64,000 nucleotides of DNA from sequence record OL631478.1. The stretch is one strand, 5' to 3'. Position 1 is the first letter of the stretch; each line of letters opens with the position of its first letter. The position numbers and the translations under genes were made by a program. The stretch is from Escherichia phage ECML-1. Below the pieces are notes generated by a model, which had not been told where the DNA came from, searched no databases, and saw nothing but the letters and a program-made list of their open reading frames with translations. Of the stretch, positions 20,514 through 35,272 are shown in pieces.

Positions 20514-22898
20514 ATGGCAGATTACAAGTTGAGTGAATTAAACTCAATCGATACAATCCGTTCAGACGACCTTCTTCATGTCAGGGTTAAAAAGAGACCT
20601 GAAATGCTGGGTGATGAAGACCGTCGAATGACCTATCAAGACTTCTTAGCATCTTTTAAACTTGAAAGATTTGTTCAGATTGCTGGTAGCACTATGGCGG
20701 GTGACTTAGGGATTGTTAAGTTACTTTATGGTGGTAAGGTAGTCTTTGACCCAACAGGCTCTTCTGAGATTACTATTGGGGATGTTTTAAAGTCTTTTAA
20801 AATCAATGCAAATGGCCTTAAACTAACTATTGCAGACGCTTCAAGGTCGGCAACTGTTTATCATACTCTGAATAAACCAAGCCCTAATGAACTTGGGATG
20901 AGAACTAATGAAGAGAATGATGCAAGATATGCAAGGCTTGCTGTGAATAATACCTTTAGAGGTACTCAAGCTATCCTCTCTGACAATGAAGCACTCATTA
21001 TTAAAAATATCACTCAAGGAGCACCACTCTATCTTCGTGGTCAAGATGCAGATGGCACTAACAGATGGTATCTAGGTAATGATAATAGGGGCACACATAA
21101 CCTTGTATTGAAGAATGTAAAAACTGACGTTTCAATTGCTATTTTAGAAAATTTGGTGACAGTCAATAGAACTCTTCAAATTGCTGGTCAAGTTCAGCCT
21201 TCAAGTTTTGCTAACTTAGATGCTAGATACTTTACTCAGACAGCAGCTAATCAGAGATTTGCGCAGTTAGCTGGCAATAATACATTTAGTGGTTCTAATA
21301 TTTTCACTAATTTTGTTATTAAGAAGAATGCTAATGCTATTACTATTCAAAATGTAGATACAACTACGGCTTTGTATATCCAAGCAAGGAAATCAGATGG
21401 AACTAATAAGTGGTACATTGGTAATGATGGTGATGAAAACATTGTAAACATCTATAACTATTTAGCAAAAACACAAATCTCATTAGGTAACACCATTACC
21501 ATGAGCAGAACAGTCCAAATTGGTGGTCAAGTTCAACCTTCTGATTGGTCTAACATTGATTCTCGATACATTCCAGCAGCTACTTTGAGTAATCTTGCTA
21601 AGATTAATGTGGCTAACACTTTTACAAATGTGCAGACTATTGTATCTAACAATGAAGGTCTAGTGTTGAGGAACTTAACACAGGGGCAGCCACAATATAT
21701 CCGTGGTGTTGATACTGCGAATGTATCTAGGTGGTGGGTAGGTGTAGGTGGCACAAATTCTACTGATGTAGCCTTAAACAACAGCTACTCTGGGACTCAA
21801 ATTACTCTTATGCCTTCAGCGATTAAGGCTAATAAGAATCTAACCATCACTGGTCAAGTTCAACCTTCTGATTGGTCTAACTTAGATGCTAGATATTTTG
21901 TTAAAACTCAGTTATTAAACCAATCTTTAATGACTGTCTCTGTAGATAACCTTGAAAACCCTTCAGGTTTTAATCTTGGATATTCAGGTTTTGTCAGAAA
22001 CAATGCGGTTACTAGTGGACTGAAAGAATTGGCAATTCATGTTGCGCACTCTAATAAGACTGCTGCACATGCAAGAGGAATCTCTTTTGTGTATGGCTCA
22101 AATGGACTGGCAACATTTACCTATGCCTATGACAAAAATGGTGACTATGCTGGAGAAGCACAGATTTATACAACTGATTTTAAACCAACCCCTTCAGATA
22201 TTGGTGCATACACTAAAGCTGAAACTGACCAGAAGATTGCACAGGCAGTAAGTGACTCTACAGACCTTAATAAAATCTATCCAGTAGGTATTGTAACGTG
22301 GTTTAACAGTAATGTTGACCCTAATACAGCACTTCCTGGGTTAACTTGGACGTACCTGAACAATGGTGTTGGTAGAACTATCAGAATTGCAGCAGCAAAC
22401 GGTTCAGATGTTGCTACAACTGGTGGTTCAGATTCTGTGACGTTAGCTGTTGGGAACTTACCATCACATACCCATAGTTTCTCTGCTACCACTTCATCTT
22501 TTGATTATGGTACGAAGGGAACTAACAGTACTGGTGGTCATTCTCACTCTGTAAGTGGTACAACAAGTGCTGCTGGCAACCACGCTCACCACTTAGGTCT
22601 GTTATTAGTTAACGGTGGTGATGCTTTGTACGGGTATACAACCGTTGGTAACAGCCTGCCTAGAACACTTGACTGGCTTGACAGAAGAGACAATAAATTC
22701 CCTAACACTAACACAACTGGTAACCATACACATACATGGTCTGGTACTACAAGCGGTGCTGGTGACCATTCCCACTCTGTAGGTATTGGTGCTCATAGCC
22801 ACACAGTTAGTGGTAATACTGGTAGTACAGGTTCTGGTTCAGCATTTAGTGTTACTAACCAGTTCTACAAATTAATGGCTTGGGTGAGAACTGCTTAA
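20514..22898 (+). CDS. Long tail fiber protein with internal tandem triplication and His-rich C-terminal module
   Basis: 794 aa; three ~108 aa repeats each ending GQVQPS(D/S)(W/F)(S/A)N(L/I)D(A/S)RY; C-terminus GHSHSVSG...AHSHTVSG...[11 protein letters not shown] parallels the upstream fiber. Confidence 0.75.
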
Positions 22899-22905
22899 TC
22901 CCTTG

Positions 22906-22934
22906 TTGACTGATTGTTAAGATGGTGTTAATAT
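22906..22934 (+). promoter_or_regulatory. Candidate sigma70-like promoter upstream of small membrane-protein genes
   Basis: TTGACT - 17 nt - TAATAT. Confidence 0.3.
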
Positions 22935-26174: not shown

Positions 26175-26504
26175 TTAATCTGCCAACCTTAAATTGAAAT
26201 TAACACCAAATTTTTCACATACTTCCAACATATACTCAAGGGAGACGTTACCAGTGAGATGGATTATGTTGGATACACGAGCCTGAGAGATACCACAAAT
26301 TTTAGCAACTTGCTCTTGAGAAAGACCTCTGGATTTAATCTCTCTCTTAAAACGATGTGCAACGAAGTCTCTCATTTCGTCTACATCCATTGGACAAATA
26401 TAACTCTCCATTTCAGCCTCTCTGTCAGCCTCCCAATCATCTTGTGGAGCATAAGGGTCAAAAACCTCATTCATCTTTCTTCTTCCGTTTTCGTGAAGTG
26501 TCAA
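26175..26504 (-). CDS. Putative HTH DNA-binding protein (true start probably internal Met near 26474)
   Basis: C-terminal LSQEQVAKICGISQARVSNII helix-turn-helix-like segment. Confidence 0.45.
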   Translation of the reverse strand: MTLHENGRRKMNEVFDPYAPQDDWEADREAEMESYICPMDVDEMRDFVAHRFKREIKSRGLSQEQVAKICGISQARVSNIIHLTGNVSLEYMLEVCEKFGVNFNLRLAD

Positions 26505-27161: not shown

Positions 27162-27310
27162 ATTTTTTTATAAGGCTACTGCCATCCTTCCATACCTTAC
27201 CTAACCAAACCGAACCTCACACAACCAGACCGAGCCGCACCCCGCCTTATTAAAAGACCCTCTTAAAGACCTTTTAAAAAGGTAAGTCTCATTTTAATGT
27301 AGCTGAGACT
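27162..27310. repeat. Structured intergenic repeat unit A (X-block hairpin, C+A-rich tract, palindrome IR1)
   Basis: ATTTTTTTATAAGGCTACTGCCATCC block; ~66 nt tract ~77% C+A; palindrome CCTTATTAAAAG-accctcttaaagac-CTTTTAAAAAGG (27245-27282); hairpin AGTCTCA/TGAGACT (27285-27310). Confidence 0.75.
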
Positions 27311-27437
27311 AACTACCCGCACCGAACCTCACCTGACCTGACCGCGCCATACCTAACCGTGCCTTACCACACCTCACTTAAAAACCCTTTTAAAAGACTC
27401 TTAAGTGATGTAATCGAATTTTTATGTAGCTCCGATT
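27311..27437. repeat. Structured intergenic repeat unit B
   Basis: AACTACCC + C+A-rich tract with CCTCACC core; inverted repeat CACTTAA-N19-TTAAGTG (27375-27407); hairpin AATCG/CGATT around conserved ATTTTTATGTAGCT (27412-27437). Confidence 0.75.
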
Positions 27438-27564
27438 AACTACCCATACCTCACTTTACCTAACCTGACCTTACAAGACCGTACCTGACCCGACCCCACC
27501 TCGCAGTACCTTGTTAAAAGACCCTCTTAAAGACCTTTTAAAAAGGAGCCTCCGAAGAGGCTAC
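27438..27564. repeat. Structured intergenic repeat unit C (ends in minus-strand terminator)
   Basis: AACTACCC + C+A-rich tract; palindrome CCTTGTTAAAAG-accctcttaaagac-CTTTTAAAAAGG (27509-27546); terminal hairpin AGCCTC-CGAA-GAGGCT. Confidence 0.75.
27536..27564 (-). terminator. Rho-independent terminator (minus strand) downstream of gene 27574..28014
   Basis: Minus-strand reading: AGCCTC-TTCG-GAGGCT(CC) hairpin followed by TTTTT. Confidence 0.55.
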
Positions 27565-28685: not shown

Positions 28686-28858
28686 ATTTTTAACGTGGCT
28701 ACTACCATCCACCCATACCTCACCTAACAACACCTAACAACACAAAACTACACCCCACACCACCGCACCACACCAAACATCACTTAAAAACCCTCTTAGA
28801 AGACCCTTAAGTGATGCTGGTGAGTACCCGTTGGTTTATGCTGCTCAGTATACTCACC
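28686..28858. repeat. Structured intergenic repeat unit D (fourth copy, non-tandem)
   Basis: GGTAG-atttttaacgtggCTACTACC X-block hairpin; 80 nt tract ~90% C+A with CCTCACC core; inverted repeat CACTTAA-N19-TTAAGTG (28781-28813); hairpin GGTGAGTA/TACTCACC (28819-28858). Confidence 0.75.
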
Positions 28859-31090: not shown

Positions 31091-33790
31091 TTAGTGAACC
31101 TCAAGCCAGCTTTTACCAACCTTACCAGTACCTGTAACAAGCGTTTCTTTCTTAAGACCTAAGTTCTTAGAAGCTTGTCCATAATACCAGTCAGTAACTG
31201 CTTTCACTTCTGCCGTCATACTTTCTGGACATTCCCAACTCGTCTCGTCGTGATATGCGCAGAGTAAACGAGCACCAATAGCTGGTTTACGCCCATTTAA
31301 CTTCATTAAGCCTTCGTCAATCATACGACGGCAAGCAAGGTTAATTGCCTCATTTTGAATCTGAGCCTCTGAACCCATGAGCAAATAATTCAACAGCTTA
31401 TGCGGAGATTTACACCACAACCAAGCTCCAGCAACCTTTACAAAACCCCCTTTAGAGATTGCAGCAGTCTTACCAAACACCTCTTCAAGTGCCTTTTTAG
31501 TTGCTTTGTAGTCAGCTTCCAAGTCATCTAACAGCTTCTTAATTTTAGGCAAACGTATAAAGTAAGTCTGTTTAGTCAGCGCACCTTCCTTAGTAGTCGC
31601 AGCTTTAATCGTCTTAGCAAACTTCTCATCACCTGCACCGAACAGCAGTGCATAGATACCATTCTTAGCTTTCTTACGACCTTTGCTAATCTCATGAAGA
31701 AGATTCTCATCCTGAGTAGCTCGACAAGTCAAGATGTCCTGCTCATCATTCAAGCTAAAGTAAATACTGTTCAGTGTATGTGCATCAGTTCCTGAATAGA
31801 CAACGTACAGGTCATTCTCAGAGTCATAGCGAAGGTACTTATCAATCTCTGGGTTGAGGTACTCATCAAAGTGTTTGCAGTAATAGCGTCCATCTTCTTG
31901 ACGAATGAACTCAATTTCTTCTTTACCTTGCGTTACCGCTTTGGTGAAGTCTTTATCACCCATAAAGTTACAAAGTAGAACTAGCTGGGCTGAGTTCATA
32001 TCTACAGAGACAACGTTAGTACCTTCCTCACAAATCCACACTGCCCTCATTGGTTCCCCATAGACAGCAGCACCAGACGGTACGTTTACAATACCATATT
32101 GTGTCATACGTCCAGTTGAAGTACCAAACACCATTGCACCAGCACTAAGGCGACCATCAGGACGAATCTGGTTCAACCAACCTTTTTCATCATCCTTTGA
32201 GTTCTCAATAGTTCTGCGTCGGTGCATCAAAGTATAGTACTTAGCAATCTTCTGTCCAAGCTCACCTTCAATCGTATCATAAGATGATTCAGTAAGTTTT
32301 GGTGAAGTACGGATTAAGCAAGGCTCAAGCAAATCTGTGTACTTCTTCACAGACCAGTTATGCTCAATGTACTGTACACCTTCATGTTCAACATAGCTCA
32401 AACCACACCGCTCAACCATTTCCTGCCACTTAGGATGTTTTGTAATCATCTTTTTATTGTCTTTGAAACGACAAACTTTGACAGGGCGACCGTCTGAGTC
32501 TTTCTTGTAGTTCCAGTCATCTGGAATCCAACCAACTGATTTCAAGTAGTCTTTAACAACTGCTACCTGAGTCATACGAGAAACTTCAAAATCAATTGGT
32601 GTATATGGTGCATCAATCAAACCTGTGTAGCGACTTGACTCAAGCTCAAAGTGGTTAACAACGTGACTGTTATAGTACTTCACAGTTTTGACTGTTTTCA
32701 CTGGCTTCCAGTCTTTGCATTTCTTACCAATCTTTGCATTCAACTCATTGCAAATTGCACGAGCATCCTTCATTGCTACAAAGCCTTCCTTGTACTCTTC
32801 ACCAGTTACAGAGTTGGTTGGTGTATAGCAATTCCTCTTTTCAATGTTAAAAATCTTTGTAGTTGGCTTACCAAATGGTTTGATTTCGTATGTCTGCATC
32901 TCACCGTTACGCACCTGTTGACGGTACTTCGTCTTAGGATACTTGGTGATTCTCTTCAACCCATCTGCATGACCAAATGTTTCAACATACTCATTCCAAG
33001 CCTTTGCAAACTCTTCACCAGTTACTTTACCTTTGGTCTTAATAGTTGGAGGTAGATGTGGTTCAACCTCTGAAGCAAGCTCATTAGTCAACTTGTCAAG
33101 TTCCTTTACATGGAACTCCATAAGCTCTTTATCAGCTTTCCAACCATTGATAGCTTGCTGGCTCATCCAGAAAGATGTTTCTTTAGCTCGCATGTAGGTT
33201 TCATAAGTATCTATGCCACACTTCTTAAGCTTGAGATACTCATTATCAAGTGCCCGTTTAGTTTTGGCGTTAATACGGATATCTTCTACAACACGAGTGA
33301 AGATTTCTGCATTCCACACACCCCAATGTTCAATCTCTGGTTTACGAACACCAACACGAGCACCCCATGCAGCCAAACCATGAGCACCTTTATAACCCTT
33401 TGGAGTTGGTCTATCCATCCACTGAACACGAGACTGGATAAGAGAATCCTGAAAGAAATTACTCCACGGTTTACACTTTGGGTTATCAAAGTTCCATAAA
33501 TCAGGTGCAATGTGATTGAAAACCCACCAGTCATAACCGAGACCGTTATGGATGCAAAGACGTTTTGCCTTTAACGCAAACTCAATACCTTCACGTAAGC
33601 CACCCTTGATGTACTTGGTGTACTTGTGACCGAGAATAGGTTCATCTGTAAAGACCCATACAGGTGGCTCTTCATCGTCAGATTTATAGTCTGCGAAAGC
33701 CATTACGTGCACTTTAGTGAACTCAAGGAGTAAACCATCAGTTTCTGTATCACCAACTAAATGTAAGTTTTTAAAATCTACGTTTTCCAT
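31091..33790 (-). CDS. DNA polymerase, family A, with 3'-5' exonuclease domain (start at MENVDF, GAGGGAG RBS)
   Basis: Exo I motif LVGDTETDGL; motif B-like RATQDENL...KxxxNGIYALLFG; motif C LLCAYHDETSWE. Confidence 0.85.
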   Translation of the reverse strand: MENVDFKNLHLVGDTETDGLLLEFTKVHVMAFADYKSDDEEPPVWVFTDEPILGHKYTKYIKGGLREGIEFALKAKRLCIHNGLGYDWWVFNHIAPDLWNFDNPKCKPWSNFFQDSLIQSRVQWMDRPTPKGYKGAHGLAAWGARVGVRKPEIEHWGVWNAEIFTRVVEDIRINAKTKRALDNEYLKLKKCGIDTYETYMRAKETSFWMSQQAINGWKADKELMEFHVKELDKLTNELASEVEPHLPPTIKTKGKVTGEEFAKAWNEYVETFGHADGLKRITKYPKTKYRQQVRNGEMQTYEIKPFGKPTTKIFNIEKRNCYTPTNSVTGEEYKEGFVAMKDARAICNELNAKIGKKCKDWKPVKTVKTVKYYNSHVVNHFELESSRYTGLIDAPYTPIDFEVSRMTQVAVVKDYLKSVGWIPDDWNYKKDSDGRPVKVCRFKDNKKMITKHPKWQEMVERCGLSYVEHEGVQYIEHNWSVKKYTDLLEPCLIRTSPKLTESSYDTIEGELGQKIAKYYTLMHRRRTIENSKDDEKGWLNQIRPDGRLSAGAMVFGTSTGRMTQYGIVNVPSGAAVYGEPMRAVWICEEGTNVVSVDMNSAQLVLLCNFMGDKDFTKAVTQGKEEIEFIRQEDGRYYCKHFDEYLNPEIDKYLRYDSENDLYVVYSGTDAHTLNSIYFSLNDEQDILTCRATQDENLLHEISKGRKKAKNGIYALLFGAGDEKFAKTIKAATTKEGALTKQTYFIRLPKIKKLLDDLEADYKATKKALEEVFGKTAAISKGGFVKVAGAWLWCKSPHKLLNYLLMGSEAQIQNEAINLACRRMIDEGLMKLNGRKPAIGARLLCAYHDETSWECPESMTAEVKAVTDWYYGQASKNLGLKKETLVTGTGKVGKSWLEVH

Positions 33791-33962
33791 TTTTACTCCC
33801 TCTAAAATCATTAACCTCATACATTACTGCAAAAAATTATAAAAAGCAAGTTGACAATGCACTTGACAAGGTGTTAATCTTTGCGAAGTGGGTTTTTACT
33901 TAAAAGGTTACTTAACAGTTTAACTATACAGATACTTTAAAACTCTTAAAAGATTATTTAAT

Positions 33963-33977
33963 AGCTTTTAAAAAGCT
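33963..33977. promoter_or_regulatory. Palindromic candidate operator in divergent control region
   Basis: AGCTTTT-A-AAAAGCT perfect 7-bp inverted repeat. Confidence 0.35.
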
Positions 33978-33985
33978 TTAAAGTA

Positions 33986-34004
33986 TAACGTATAGAATAC
34001 GTTA
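33986..34004. promoter_or_regulatory. Palindromic candidate operator in divergent control region
   Basis: TAACGTAT-AGA-ATACGTTA perfect 8-bp inverted repeat. Confidence 0.4.
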
Positions 34005-34047
34005 AGATAAAAGATTAAAACTTAATAGTTACTTAAAAGAGGCTTAC

Positions 34048-34470
34048 ATGCAGAAAATGTTTGTTCACCCAGACATAGCTGACTTTGTTAGAGCTTTGCA
34101 GAAGTTGGAAGAACTTGACATTGCTGCTCAACGGGAATATGCTCACCATCACAGGAGAATGGTTGATATACAACATGAAATAGAGTTGTCTGAAAACTAT
34201 GAAGATGACTTAAAATGCTCTGTATTTGAGCATATGAAAGATGTTGCTACAGCTAGACGTAAAGCCAAAGACACAGTTGCTTTACTAGATTCTCTTAAAA
34301 AGAGGTTGCAAAGTGGTACAGACCTGTGTAATCTAGCATCACTGATTAACGATGTCGAAACTTCTTGGGATAGACACTACTATCCACGTTCTGAAAAGAC
34401 ACTTGACTTTTCTTCATCAGAAAACTTAAAATGTTCTAGAAAGAAACTTAACCAACTGAGAGAGAAATAA
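34048..34470 (+). CDS. Hypothetical early protein
   Basis: 140 aa ORF with AAGAGG RBS; first gene of rightward block. Confidence 0.45.
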   Translation: MQKMFVHPDIADFVRALQKLEELDIAAQREYAHHHRRMVDIQHEIELSENYEDDLKCSVFEHMKDVATARRKAKDTVALLDSLKKRLQSGTDLCNLASLINDVETSWDRHYYPRSEKTLDFSSSENLKCSRKKLNQLREK

Positions 34471-34471
34471 T

Positions 34472-35272
34472 ATGAATATCGATGTAGAAAAGATGCTTGA
34501 AGAGAAAGGTGTTGATGAAGCATTCTTAATCAATGCCGTAGAAAGCATGGCTATGATTCTTCGTGGTAACAACTACACAGAACAGTTTATGCCTGCAAGC
34601 TATAACTTGCCTGAAGACAAGTCTGATAACGGTGCTTTTGCAGAACAGGTCAACATGATGTTAACAGACACTACACTTGCTCTGGCATCTATTGCGGTTG
34701 GTGTTGATGCACTTGCTGAGTTCATTTTTTATGAAATGCAAAAGAATGACTATATCAGGATGTCAGACGAAGATAAGGAACTGTTGCTGACTAAGGACAC
34801 TGATTCCATTATTGATACGCTTATCTCATCAACGAGTGCTGTTATGGCTGTTCTTGAGAAGCGTATGGAAGAGAAACTTTCACGATATGAAAAACTTGAT
34901 TGGGGCGTAGAAGAATTAAACCCACGAATCAAAGAGATTATCCAGCAAACTAAAGAGTCTTTGGAAGAAGCTGTTGAAAATGACTCTGTAGCTGACATTG
35001 AACCACTTCAGGTGAAAGTTGCACTGATGATTCCAGCTATCTCTACGATGATGAATATCGTTGCACTAATCCAACTGTCACAGATGATGGGTGTGAGTAT
35101 TGAGTTCATTGAGGAAATGACTGGTGGCGTTAGTATGCAAGCAATCAATGATGTTTTGGTGAATATTGGTGCTTCAATCATTGAAGAGAAGCTACGCATT
35201 AACTTCGGTGATGATTTTGTGAAGCAAATCTCAGCTATGGCTGAAAAAGAGTCTGCTGACCAACTGCACTAA
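34472..35272 (+). CDS. Hypothetical acidic early protein
   Basis: 266 aa, strongly Asp/Glu-rich; coupled start. Confidence 0.45.
   Translation: MNIDVEKMLEEKGVDEAFLINAVESMAMILRGNNYTEQFMPASYNLPEDKSDNGAFAEQVNMMLTDTTLALASIAVGVDALAEFIFYEMQKNDYIRMSDEDKELLLTKDTDSIIDTLISSTSAVMAVLEKRMEEKLSRYEKLDWGVEELNPRIKEIIQQTKESLEEAVENDSVADIEPLQVKVALMIPAISTMMNIVALIQLSQMMGVSIEFIEEMTGGVSMQAINDVLVNIGASIIEEKLRINFGDDFVKQISAMAEKESADQLH

What the first reader, a model, noticed from the sequence alone, without database searches (positions are those of the whole stretch)
33821..34047. Divergent AT-rich control region with two perfect palindromes between the DNA polymerase operon and the rightward replication operon
This 227-bp gap separates divergently transcribed blocks. 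It contains tandem TTGACA hexamers (33851, 33863), a 7-bp palindrome AGCTTTT-A-AAAAGCT (33963-33977) and an 8-bp palindrome TAACGTAT-AGA-ATACGTTA (33986-34004). The CTTTTAAAAAG core also sits inside the repeat-unit palindromes at 27.2-27.5 kb, hinting at one DNA-binding factor recognising both.
Basis: seen in the sequence. Interest (0 to 1): 0.4.

Follow-up and report, generated by a model that had tools for sequence, protein, structure and literature searches.

The report
Phage divergent promoters plus structured leader

Summary
The window is a Felixounavirus (Felix O1-like) genome, and the finding is its ORF96 (DNA polymerase) / ORF97 intergenic region.

**Observation.** Every motif is at the stated coordinates. 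The polymerase really starts at 33790, so the gap is 257 bp.

**Chance.** Neither palindrome is unusual alone (P=0.25 and 0.08 in shuffles).

**Promoters.**
- The tandem TTGACA belongs to a 23-bp module, GTTGACAA-N-GCACTTGACAAGGT.
- It occurs exactly twice per Felix O1 genome, once in each divergent intergenic region. Both copies point rightward.
- Here it gives TTGACA-N18-TGnTAATCT, with a predicted start near 33887.
- A weaker leftward promoter abuts it: TTGCTT-17-TAATGT.
- This back-to-back layout recurs in most of the relatives scanned, including distant ones.

**Leader.**
- The 161-nt, 77% A+T leader is about as conserved as first codon positions (diversity 0.007, against 0.10 at polymerase third positions).
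- Both palindromes lie in the right arm of a 96-bp interrupted dyad, 33911-34006 (fold z = -4.7).
- The dyad shows compensatory changes. Equivalent whole-leader hairpins occur in distant clades and in the paralogous ORF41 leader.

**Verdict.** Most likely an early promoter pair plus a cis-acting 5'-UTR RNA structure. Operator, replication-origin and antitermination readings are not excluded. The link to the 27-kb repeats through one binding factor is weak.

The parts
33788..33803 (-). True start of the DNA polymerase gene: ATG at 33790-33788, with its Shine-Dalgarno AGAGGGAG (complement of 33796-33803).
   Evidence: Suspvirus and Mooglevirus records start the CDS here. The upstream in-frame ATGs at 33811 and 33820 are absent in Mooglevirus.
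33821..33849 (-). Candidate leftward promoter P_L for the polymerase operon: -35 TTGCTT (33849-33844), 17-bp spacer, -10 TAATGT (33826-33821). The predicted start is near 33814.
   Evidence: PWM score 6.6. AAGCAA is invariant, and the -10 keeps the TAnnGT form (TAATGT or TAGGGT) across three genera. A leftward promoter whose -35 abuts the rightward -35 recurs in L043, Arno162, L058, L060, L183 and L185.
33850..33872 (+). Twin -35 module GTTGACAATGCACTTGACAAGGT. The first TTGACA (33851-56) is the working -35. The second TTGACA (33863-68) lies inside the spacer.
   Evidence: One copy in the window and one in the Felix O1 ORF40/41 gap (L062 15015-37); 0.00 expected by chance. Both hexamers are invariant in Felixounavirus, Suspvirus, Mooglevirus and L057.
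33872..33880 (+). Extended -10 of P_R: TG (33872-73), one base, then TAATCT (33875-80), 18 bp after the first TTGACA.
   Evidence: PWM score 11.8. The same feature is annotated as a promoter in KR014248. GGTGTTAAT is shared with another promoter-like site at 22906. A distal TTGACA/TAnnnT promoter was found in all 17 lineages scanned.
33886..33909 (+). Predicted start region (about 33887) and 5' leader: AAGTGGGTTTT, then the box ACTTAAAAGGTT (33898-33909).
   Evidence: No variable site among 29 distinct Felixounavirus sequences. ACTTAAAAGGTT is identical, and at the same distance, in the paralogous ORF41 leader.
33911..34006 (+). 96-bp interrupted dyad, read as a long leader hairpin. CTTAAC, CTATAC, CTTTAAA and TTAAAAG (left arm) pair with CTTTTAA, TTTAAAG, GTATAG and GTTAAG (right arm).
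   Evidence: z = -4.7 (RNA, + strand), -5.4 (RNA, - strand), -4.3 (DNA), with 0 of 200 shuffles as stable. Covariation in the outer helix: CTTAAC/GTTAAG, CTTTAC/GTAAAG, CTTTAT/ATAAAG.
33963..33977 (.). Palindrome 1, AGCTTTT-A-AAAAGCT. It lies at the start of the dyad's right arm, next to the apical loop.
   Evidence: Recurrent A-to-G change at 33972 (a U.G wobble on the + strand). The core is not conserved between genera.
33986..34004 (.). Palindrome 2, TAACGTAT-AGA-ATACGTTA, in the right arm of the dyad. It may be an alternative local hairpin.
   Evidence: pair 33987/34003 is A-U in 10 sequences and U-A in 10; pair 33989/34001 is C-G in 16 and U-A in 4. The same right-arm bases also covary with 33914 and 33916.
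33993..33998 (+). TAGAAT in the loop of palindrome 2: a possible -10 of a weak proximal promoter.
   Evidence: PWM score only 5.8 here. A -10-like hexamer 55-60 nt before the ATG recurs in other clades, and Kolesnikvirus has a strong one closer to the gene, TTGACT-18-TATGAT with its -10 35 nt before the ATG.
34037..34050 (+). Shine-Dalgarno AAGAGG (34037-42) and the ATG (34048-50) of gp97.
   Evidence: gp97 belongs to PHROG 4039, function unknown, and was found only in Ounavirinae-like phages.

Best explanation
The gap is the early control region of the phage. It has two layers.

**(1) Promoters: shown by sequence and comparison, not by experiment.**
- Two host sigma-70-type promoters stand back to back, their -35 hexamers 1 bp apart.
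- P_L (TTGCTT-17-TAATGT) reads leftward into the polymerase gene through a leader of about 24 nt.
- P_R (TTGACA-18-TGnTAATCT, start near 33887) reads rightward.
- P_R belongs to a special class with a second TTGACA 12 bp downstream, inside the spacer.
- The phage uses this class only at its two divergence points (ORF97 and ORF41), so the two long rightward operons are probably switched together.

**(2) Leader RNA: inferred.**
- The P_R transcript carries a 161-nt A/U-rich leader whose centre (33911-34006) folds into one long imperfect hairpin.
- Palindromes 1 and 2 are parts of its 3' arm. Palindrome 2 can also fold locally, giving an alternative pairing.
- The hairpin acts in cis on the RNA. 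It would set how much gp97 and the replication operon are expressed, through RNase III-type processing, mRNA stability or ribosome access.
- In the Pectobacterium-like clade the base of the equivalent hairpin pairs with the ribosome-binding site of gp97. In the ORF41 leader it pairs with an upstream AAGAGG copy, not the start-proximal one. In Felixounavirus the gp97 ribosome-binding site lies outside the hairpin.
For: **Promoters.**
- P_R scores 11.8. It is annotated in one GenBank record.
- Its core is invariant across three genera and in L057.
- A distal TTGACA/TAnnnT promoter lies 146-205 nt before the gp97 ATG in all 17 lineages scanned, even where the sequence no longer aligns.
- A leftward -35 abutting it recurs in most of them.
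- The twin -35 23-mer is present twice per Felix O1 genome, in the two divergent gaps. The twin hexamers persist in the ORF41 promoter of Suspvirus and Mooglevirus although the 6 nt between them differ.

**Constraint on the leader.**
- Diversity in the gap is 0.0072, against 0.103 (polymerase), 0.046 (gp97) and 0.177 (gp98) at third codon positions.

**Structure.**
- The dyad folds with z = -4.7, and 0 of 200 shuffles do as well.
- 91% of cells are paired over 21 distinct sequences. Six pairs have changes on both sides; 3 of 500 shuffles reach that number.
- The outer helix changes CTTAAC/GTTAAG to CTTTAC/GTAAAG to CTTTAT/ATAAAG.
- Whole-leader hairpins recur in L057, L058, Arno162 and L182-L185 with unrelated sequence.
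- In the Pectobacterium-like clade 7 of 30 pairs show compensatory changes. The helix over the ribosome-binding site needs G.U pairs on the + strand.
- The paralogous ORF41 leader folds the same way (z = -2.85). One pair goes C-G to U-A through a U.G intermediate on the + strand.
- No conserved minus-strand promoter lies to the right of the dyad.

**Published data.** ORF96 was transcribed within 5 minutes of infection. ORF96 and ORF97 were maximally expressed at 25 minutes (PMC3185647, section 2.5 and Table 3).
Against: - No transcription start, RNA structure or processing has been measured. None was found in the held paper library.
- P_L is weak by consensus (6.6).
- The covariation comes from about two inherited events. 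The same right-arm bases also covary with the left arm of palindrome 2, so pairing and repeated protein half-sites cannot be fully separated.
- In 12 of 13 lineages folded on both strands, and in the ORF41 leader, the minus strand folds more stably than the plus strand. A/C appositions outnumber G/T ones. That is the opposite of what a plus-strand RNA would predict.
- The helices are short (6-10 bp) and almost all A-U.
- The ribosome-binding site is not convincingly sequestered in Felixounavirus itself.
- Kolesnikvirus leaders show no significant fold.
- No Rfam family matches.
Confidence: 0.5

Rival explanations
1. DNA-level operators. Palindromes 1 and 2 are binding sites for a dimeric phage or host protein, for example the HTH_3 protein encoded at 26178-26504. 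The protein would control a proximal promoter whose -10 is the TAGAAT in the loop of palindrome 2. Palindrome 1 would sit over the -35 region.
For: - A Cro/CI-type HTH protein is encoded in the leftward operon.
- TAGAAT is the -10 of other good promoters in this phage.
- A -10-like hexamer 55-60 nt before the ATG recurs across clades, and Kolesnikvirus has a strong proximal promoter, with its -10 35 nt before the ATG.
- Symmetric changes in both half-sites would also fit co-evolution with a dimer.
- Three similar half-sites covary together.
Against: - The proximal promoter scores only 5.8 here.
- Palindrome 2 has no second copy in the window or in the 24.5-kb Felix O1 stretch that covers most of the rest of the genome.
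- Palindrome 1's core drifts between genera while dyad symmetry is kept.
- Distant clades keep long hairpins with unrelated sequence.
- The third covarying site is 84 nt from its partner.
- The whole 161-nt leader is constrained, not only the two palindromes.
Confidence: 0.17
2. Transcription-activated replication origin. P_R transcripts would open the 77% A+T leader or prime DNA synthesis there. This resembles the T7 primary origin (tandem promoters followed by an A+T-rich stretch) and T4 oriF/oriG (a promoter followed by an unwinding element). The replisome here is T7-like, but the phage depends on host RNA polymerase.
For: - The region lies between the polymerase and primase/helicase genes.
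- A promoter is followed by 161 nt of 77% A+T with strong dyad symmetry that also folds as DNA.
- The cumulative GC-skew minimum falls exactly here. Skew is larger in the flanking early regions than in the + strand late genes.
- The polymerase and helicase are T7-like, and no phage RNA polymerase is encoded (PMC3185647).
- The resemblance to T7 and T4 origins rests on my own knowledge of those systems.
Against: - The GC-skew switch coincides with the switch in gene orientation, so it cannot be told apart from a transcription effect.
- No DnaA box, IHF site, GATC or iteron array in the usual sense.
- In sister clades the dyad ends exactly at the ribosome-binding site and uses + strand G.U pairs. 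An origin would not need either.
- The same promoter-plus-leader design precedes the ORF41 unit, which runs on into the tRNA and morphogenesis genes.
Confidence: 0.12
3. Processive antitermination site (nut- or put-like). The leader RNA, alone or with Nus factors or a phage protein, would modify RNA polymerase so that it reads through the many intrinsic terminators of the two long rightward operons.
For: - The same promoter and start-of-leader module heads both long rightward units.
- The rightward operon holds at least 8-9 clear intrinsic terminators (PMC3185647 Table 2). That paper states that read-through is unexplained.
- CTCTTAAAA (33943) lies 13 nt before a 15-nt hairpin (palindrome 1), which loosely recalls boxA-boxB.
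- Kolesnikvirus has CCTCTTAACAGA, close to the rrn boxA sequence (the boxA comparison rests on my own knowledge).
Against: - No + strand boxA match in this gap.
- The boxA-like bases 33942-43 are the most variable positions of the leader.
- Palindrome 1 has an A-U stem and no GNRA-like loop.
- No N-like protein was identified. gp97 has no informative sequence or fold match.
- Internal promoter-like sites exist downstream, so read-through may not be needed.
Confidence: 0.07
4. Nothing beyond promoters. The palindromes and the dyad would be by-products of low-complexity A+T-rich sequence, or of template-switch 'palindrome correction' during replication, with no function of their own.
For: - The individual palindromes are expected by chance (P = 0.25 and 0.084).
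- The region is built from a few related words such as CTTAAAAG and CTTTAAAG.
Against: - Diversity across the whole leader is 6-25 times lower than at neighbouring third codon positions.
- The dyad has z = -4.7 against dinucleotide-preserving shuffles.
- Hairpins are conserved across clades with different sequence.
Confidence: 0.04

Closest known systems
Phage lambda pL-N leader (strong early promoter, long leader, RNase III-sensitive hairpin that controls N translation)
   Same: A host-type early promoter is followed by a leader of more than 150 nt. Its conserved long imperfect hairpin lies just upstream of the first gene. In sister clades the hairpin covers the ribosome-binding site. The comparison rests on my own knowledge of lambda.
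   Different: - No boxA/boxB and no N homologue.
- The stems are almost pure A-U.
- RNase III cleavage is untested.
- The ribosome-binding site lies outside the hairpin in Felixounavirus.
T7 early region and primary origin (tandem promoters, then an RNase III site or an A+T-rich stretch)
   Same: - Tandem promoter elements ahead of a structured or A+T-rich untranslated stretch.
- A T7-like polymerase and primase-helicase encoded on either side (PMC3185647).
   Different: - There is one -10 with two -35 hexamers, not two complete promoters.
- Host RNA polymerase is used, not a phage one.
- No evidence of initiation of replication.
Back-to-back divergent sigma-70 promoters of phage and plasmid control regions
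   Same: The -35 elements lie on opposite strands 1 bp apart, and the predicted starts are about 73 bp apart. The layout is conserved across the subfamily.
   Different: No operator shared by the two promoters was identified. P_L is weak by consensus.
In-silico promoter annotation of O1-like phages (Felix O1 paper PMC3185647; GenBank KR014248 for AYO145A)
   Same: KR014248 already marks TTGACA-N18-TAATCT here, and the matching ORF41 promoter, as 'promoter'.
   Different: - The Felix O1 paper reported no recognisable promoter in the ORF96/97 gap.
- No record or paper examined here mentions the twin -35 module as a shared class, the leader dyad or its conservation.
HK022 put RNA and other leader RNAs that make RNA polymerase terminator-resistant
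   Same: A conserved structured RNA lies directly downstream of the main early promoters of long operons that contain many terminators.
   Different: No sequence or structural similarity was shown. There is no Rfam match. This is a functional analogy only.

Membership tests
Sigma-70-type promoter (P_R) | -35 hexamer close to TTGACA | tested here: met
   TTGACA at 33851-56.
Sigma-70-type promoter (P_R) | -10 hexamer of the TAnnnT type, 16-18 bp downstream, optionally with an extended TGn | tested here: met
   TAATCT at 33875-80, 18-bp spacer, TG at 33872-73; PWM score 11.8.
Sigma-70-type promoter (P_R) | Kept at the same place in relatives | tested here: met
   Found in all 17 lineages scanned, 146-205 nt before the gp97 ATG.
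Sigma-70-type promoter (P_R) | Mapped transcription start or in-vitro activity | not testable with these tools
   No start-site data in the held literature.
Back-to-back divergent promoter (P_L) | -35 and -10 on the opposite strand, upstream of the polymerase gene | tested here: inconclusive
   TTGCTT-17-TAATGT scores 6.6. The position recurs in six other lineages with scores of 10.0-10.3.
Palindromic operator of a dimeric HTH regulator | Two inverted half-sites with a short spacer | tested here: met
   Palindrome 1 has 7+1+7 bases and palindrome 2 has 8+3+8.
Palindromic operator of a dimeric HTH regulator | Overlaps a core promoter element | tested here: inconclusive
   TAGAAT lies in the loop of palindrome 2, but the promoter scores only 5.8.
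Palindromic operator of a dimeric HTH regulator | Further copies of the site elsewhere in the genome | tested here: not met
   No other match with up to 3 mismatches in the window or in Felix O1 6.5-31 kb.
Palindromic operator of a dimeric HTH regulator | Binding by a cognate protein | not testable with these tools
   A candidate HTH_3 protein exists at 26178-26504. Binding cannot be tested here.
Lambda-type nut site | boxA (CGCTCTTA, or GCTCTTTAACAA in rrn operons) on the transcribed strand | tested here: not met
   No + strand match within the allowed mismatches. The CTCTTAAAA at 33943 overlaps the most variable positions.
Lambda-type nut site | boxB hairpin (5-bp stem, purine-rich pentaloop) and an N-like protein | tested here: inconclusive
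   Palindrome 1 is a 15-nt hairpin of the right size, but it is all A-U and has a UUAAA loop. No N-like protein was recognised.
Any curated RNA family (Rfam 15) | Covariance-model match | tested here: not met
   Only chance-level hits, with E of at least 0.64.
RNase III-processed leader hairpin | About two turns of mostly continuous double-stranded RNA in an early-operon leader | tested here: inconclusive
   37 pairs in four helices. The longest continuous helix is 10 bp, broken by internal loops; free energy -23.3 kcal/mol.
RNase III-processed leader hairpin | Cleavage by RNase III | not testable with these tools
   Needs comparison of RNA ends in rnc and wild-type hosts.
Transcription-activated origin (T7 primary origin, T4 oriF/oriG type) | A promoter directly followed by an A+T-rich unwinding stretch | tested here: met
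   P_R followed by 161 nt of 77% A+T.
Transcription-activated origin (T7 primary origin, T4 oriF/oriG type) | Strand-composition switch at the site | tested here: inconclusive
   The cumulative GC-skew minimum is at 33-34 kb, but gene orientation switches there too.
Transcription-activated origin (T7 primary origin, T4 oriF/oriG type) | Mapped start of DNA synthesis | not testable with these tools
   No data.
Intrinsic terminator or attenuator | G+C-rich stem followed by a run of U | tested here: not met
   None in the gap.

The most novel reading that the evidence does not exclude
The module 'twin -35 promoter plus A/U-rich whole-leader dyad' occurs once at each of the two divergence points of the genome. 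The most novel reading is that it is more than a promoter with a leader. It could be a dedicated start device of Ounavirinae of one of two kinds:
- A transcription-activated replication origin for a T7-like replisome that relies on host RNA polymerase.
- A put-like RNA that makes host polymerase resistant to the many terminators of the two long rightward operons.

In either case the second, spacer-embedded TTGACA would be a regulatory site. An identical 23-mer also turns up in unrelated phage contigs.
Probability: 0.15. Interest if true: 0.65.

Novelty: new member of a known kind. Interest (0 to 1): 0.35.

Why it matters
Felix O1-type phages are widely used for Salmonella and E. coli typing, biocontrol and therapy. 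Even so, their genome paper states that no promoter could be recognised in this gap, and that neither temporal control nor terminator read-through is understood.

This analysis gives a concrete, testable map:
- Two back-to-back promoters.
- A promoter class shared by the two main rightward operons.
- An undescribed leader element that is conserved about as tightly as first codon positions.

If the leader hairpin controls expression of the replication operon, it becomes a handle for engineering or attenuating these phages. If it turns out to be an origin or an antitermination site, it would answer an open question about their life cycle.

Tried and rejected
- **Rfam scan of the gap.** Only chance-level hits.
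- **Long-range pairing of the leader's 5' end with the gp97 ribosome-binding site.** It appears in the single-sequence fold but is not kept in Suspvirus or Mooglevirus. Rejected for this genus.
- **T4 MotA-box reading.** AGCTTTA at 33974-80, 12 bp, then TAGAAT looks like a T4 middle promoter. It is not kept outside three genera, and the Felix O1 paper reports no T4-like modifier of host polymerase promoter specificity. Dropped.
- **boxA, DnaA box, IHF site and GATC searches of the gap.** Nothing.
- **Minus-strand transcript through the dyad.** No conserved minus-strand promoter lies to the right of it. The site at 34358 is specific to this genus and sits inside gp97.
- **Density of CT(2-4)A(2-5)G words.** The gap has the highest local count (5), but simulations reach 6, and the genome-wide total is not enriched: 67 against 79 expected. 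Not used as evidence.
- **gp97 as a clue to mechanism.** No Pfam domain, no solved relative, no significant structural neighbour. The AlphaFold2 model (pLDDT 84) is a plain helical hairpin.
- **Identity of the other twin -35 groups in IMG/VR.** They sit in Clostridium-like, alphaproteobacterial-type and cyanophage-like contigs. This gave no functional lead.
- **Literature.** No start-site or RNA-seq data for O1-like phages in the held library.
Full report
**What the window is.** A 2-kb query around the finding matches 259 phage records, almost all Felixounavirus. The best match is LF82P2 at 99.4%. The finding is the gap between Felix O1 ORF96 (DNA polymerase, leftward) and ORF97 (a 140-residue protein of unknown function, rightward). 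ORF97 is followed by dNMP kinase, primase/helicase and exonuclease. The Felix O1 genome paper assumed divergent promoters in this gap but reported that no recognisable one could be found. It also stated that temporal control and read-through of the many terminators are unexplained (PMC3185647).

**Checking the observation.** All four motifs are at the stated coordinates. The 227-bp gap follows from the longest ORF.
- The conserved polymerase start is the ATG at 33790, behind AGAGGGAG. Suspvirus and Mooglevirus records start there and lack the upstream ATGs.
- The gap is therefore 33791-34047, 257 bp.
- In 2000 dinucleotide shuffles of the gap, a palindrome with a 7-base arm appears in 25% and one with an 8-base arm in 8.4%. 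Both together appear in 1.65%, and two TTGACA in 0.05%.

So the palindromes alone are weak evidence and the TTGACA pair is not.

**The promoters.**
- TTGACA (33851-56), 18 bp, TGn-TAATCT (33872-80) scores 11.8 on a sigma-70 matrix. It is annotated as a promoter in KR014248.
- The block AAAAAGCAAGTTGACAA...CTTGACAAGGTG is invariant in Felixounavirus, Suspvirus, Mooglevirus and the more distant L057.
- On the other strand, TTGCTT (33849-44), 17 bp, TAATGT (33826-21) lies 1 bp from the rightward -35. It would start transcription about 24 nt before the polymerase ATG.
- In 17 lineages, some with only 39-50% identity in gp97, a strong rightward promoter lies 146-205 nt before the gp97 ATG.
- In most of those lineages a leftward -35 abuts it, although the sequences no longer align.

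I therefore read the invariant block as two back-to-back -35 elements.

**The tandem TTGACA.**
- The 23-mer GTTGACAA-N-GCACTTGACAAGGT occurs once in the window. It occurs once more in the stretch of Felix O1 that covers most of the genome the window lacks, in the other divergent gap (ORF40/41, the paper's P41). It points rightward there too. Chance expectation is 0.00.
- Nearly all Felixounavirus records listed have two places.
- In P41 the two hexamers and their 12-bp offset persist in Suspvirus and Mooglevirus while the six bases between them change.
- P41 and this promoter are paralogous from about -60 to +50. The shared stretch includes the box ACTTAAAAGGTT at the same distance from the -10.
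- A scan of IMG/VR found the same design in unrelated contig groups: Clostridium-like, alphaproteobacterial-type and cyanophage-like. In one group the 23-mer is identical. In each group a -10 lies 17 bp after the first hexamer.

What the second hexamer does remains unexplained.

**The leader.** From the predicted start near 33887 to the ATG there are 161 nt of 77% A+T. Other promoter-like sites in this phage have leaders of 35-45 nt.
- Among 29 distinct Felixounavirus sequences, nucleotide diversity in the gap is 0.0072, the same as polymerase first codon positions.
- Third codon positions show 0.103 (polymerase), 0.046 (gp97) and 0.177 (gp98).
- Only 11 of the 257 positions vary.

**The palindromes are part of a larger dyad.**
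- Alignment folding and a repeat search show that 33911-34006 is an interrupted dyad centred near 33959. CTTAAC, CTATAC, CTTTAAA and TTAAAAG on the left pair with CTTTTAA, TTTAAAG, GTATAG and GTTAAG on the right.
- The 102-nt stretch folds with z = -4.7 as plus-strand RNA, -5.4 as minus-strand RNA and -4.3 as DNA. None of 200 shuffles does as well.
- Both palindromes lie in the right arm, and neither forms a local hairpin in the minimum-energy fold.
- Over 21 distinct sequences, 91% of cells are paired and six pairs have changes on both sides; 3 of 500 shuffles reach that number.
- The outer helix reads CTTAAC/GTTAAG in Felixounavirus, CTTTAC/GTAAAG in Suspvirus and one Mooglevirus group, and CTTTAT/ATAAAG in the other.
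- The same two right-arm bases (34003 and 34001) also covary with the left arm of palindrome 2.
- This three-way pattern fits alternative pairings. It also fits three half-sites of one protein. It comes from only about two inherited events.

**Distant clades and the paralogue.**
- Leaders of L057, L058, Arno162 and L182-L185 have different sequence, yet each folds into one long nested hairpin (z from -1.7 to -4.7 on the plus strand).
- In the Pectobacterium-like clade 7 of 30 consensus pairs show compensatory changes. The basal helix pairs CUUC near the 5' end with the GAGG of the ribosome-binding site, using G.U pairs that exist only on the plus strand.
- The ORF41 leader folds likewise (z = -2.85). 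It is nearly invariant across three genera. One pair goes C-G to U-A through a U.G intermediate on the plus strand.
- Kolesnikvirus is the exception. It shows no significant fold, but it has a strong second promoter close to the gene.

**What speaks against a plus-strand RNA.**
- In 12 of 13 lineages folded on both strands, and in the ORF41 leader, the minus strand folds more stably. A/C appositions outnumber G/T ones.
- I found no conserved minus-strand promoter to the right of the dyad, so I cannot explain this asymmetry.
- The helices are short and A-U-rich.
- In Felixounavirus the ribosome-binding site (34037-42) lies outside the dyad. The 5'-end-to-ribosome-binding-site pairing in the single-sequence fold is not conserved.

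**The claimed link to the 27-kb repeats.**
- CTTTTAAAAAG occurs four times against 0.20 expected. Two copies are in units of one repeat family and one is inside a gene.
- The family has four units, at 27193-27546 and 28716-28805. Each has a C/A-rich tract followed by TTAAAAGACCCTCTTAAAGACC.... Only two units carry the 11-mer.
- The repeats occur in 197 phage records, several per genome.
- Palindrome 1's core is not conserved between genera.
- A looser word, TTAAAAG-N-YCYCT, links the repeats to the ORF41 leader and to the Suspvirus version of this leader.

There may be shared sequence ancestry or a shared style, but I see no case for one binding factor.

**Other readings.**
- A replication origin of the T7 or T4 oriF kind fits four things: the location, the A+T-rich stretch after a promoter, the T7-like replisome and the GC-skew minimum at 33-34 kb. 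The skew switch coincides with the switch in gene orientation. There are also no DnaA, IHF or GATC sites.
- An antitermination site would explain read-through of the 8-9 clear terminators downstream. However, no plus-strand boxA is present, and the boxA-like bases are the most variable in the leader.
- gp97 gives no clue. It was found only in Ounavirinae-like phages, has no domain, and its confident model (pLDDT 84) is a helical hairpin with no significant structural neighbour.

**Verdict.**
It is wrong in treating the two palindromes as separate protein sites tied to the 27-kb repeats.
- Best reading: back-to-back early promoters, a twin -35 promoter class shared with ORF41, and a tightly conserved leader that most likely acts as a long RNA hairpin.
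- These are known kinds of element. This particular leader and promoter class are not described in the records and papers I could search.

Noticed in passing
window 27193-27546 and 28716-28805: Four copies of a 90-130-nt non-coding unit. Each has a C/A-rich, G-poor (ACC)n-like tract of about 55 nt, then TTAAAAGACCCTCTTAAAGACCTTTTAAAAAGG (or a CACTTAA...TTAAGTG dyad), then a hairpin. The units lie between leftward genes. They occur in 197 phage records, up to 5 places each, and are labelled DR_4 in wV8. Their function is unknown. On the + strand the tract looks like a Rho-loading site, and on the - strand it is GG-rich.
   Followed up: partly
L065, L096, L087, L064 and related IMG/VR loci: The twin -35 design GTTGACA-N6-TTGACA-N-GGT, with a -10 exactly 17 bp after the first hexamer, also occurs in unrelated contig groups: Clostridium-like, alphaproteobacterial-type and T4-like cyanophage-like. 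One group carries a 23-mer identical to the Felix O1 ORF41 promoter.
   Followed up: partly
L062 15045-15052 (Felix O1 NC_005282, about 21544-21551): TATAAATA, identical to the T4 late-promoter box, lies directly after the -10 of the ORF41 promoter, the promoter of the 41-79 unit that contains the morphogenesis and packaging genes. No gp55-like factor is reported for this phage.
   Followed up: no
window 34050-34150, 34115-34143 and 34403-34432: The first 100 nt of gp97 have diversity of only 0.004, third codon positions included. Promoter-like TTGACA-17-TATGCT (inside gp97) and TTGACT-18-TAAAAT (just before gp98) keep their positions across clades. The first may simply reflect conserved codons.
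   Followed up: partly
window 33908-34009 and the equivalent leaders in 12 other lineages: The minus strand of the leader dyad folds more stably than the plus strand in 12 of 13 lineages, although only the plus strand has a conserved upstream promoter. Unexplained.
   Followed up: partly
window 31091-33790; L001 6291-9812: The DNA polymerase is a single 2.7-kb ORF here. In phage LinBro it is split into two CDS by an inserted endonuclease VII gene.
   Followed up: no
window 33790, 33811 and 33820: Three different polymerase starts are in play. Felix O1 and AYO145A records use 33811, Suspvirus and Mooglevirus records use 33790, and the longest ORF begins at 33820. Comparison supports 33790.
   Followed up: yes
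window 34472-35272: gp98 is labelled 'minor tail protein' (PHROG 4251) but sits in the replication operon. It is hypervariable (third-position diversity 0.18, first and second positions 0.056), next to the almost invariant gp97.
   Followed up: no
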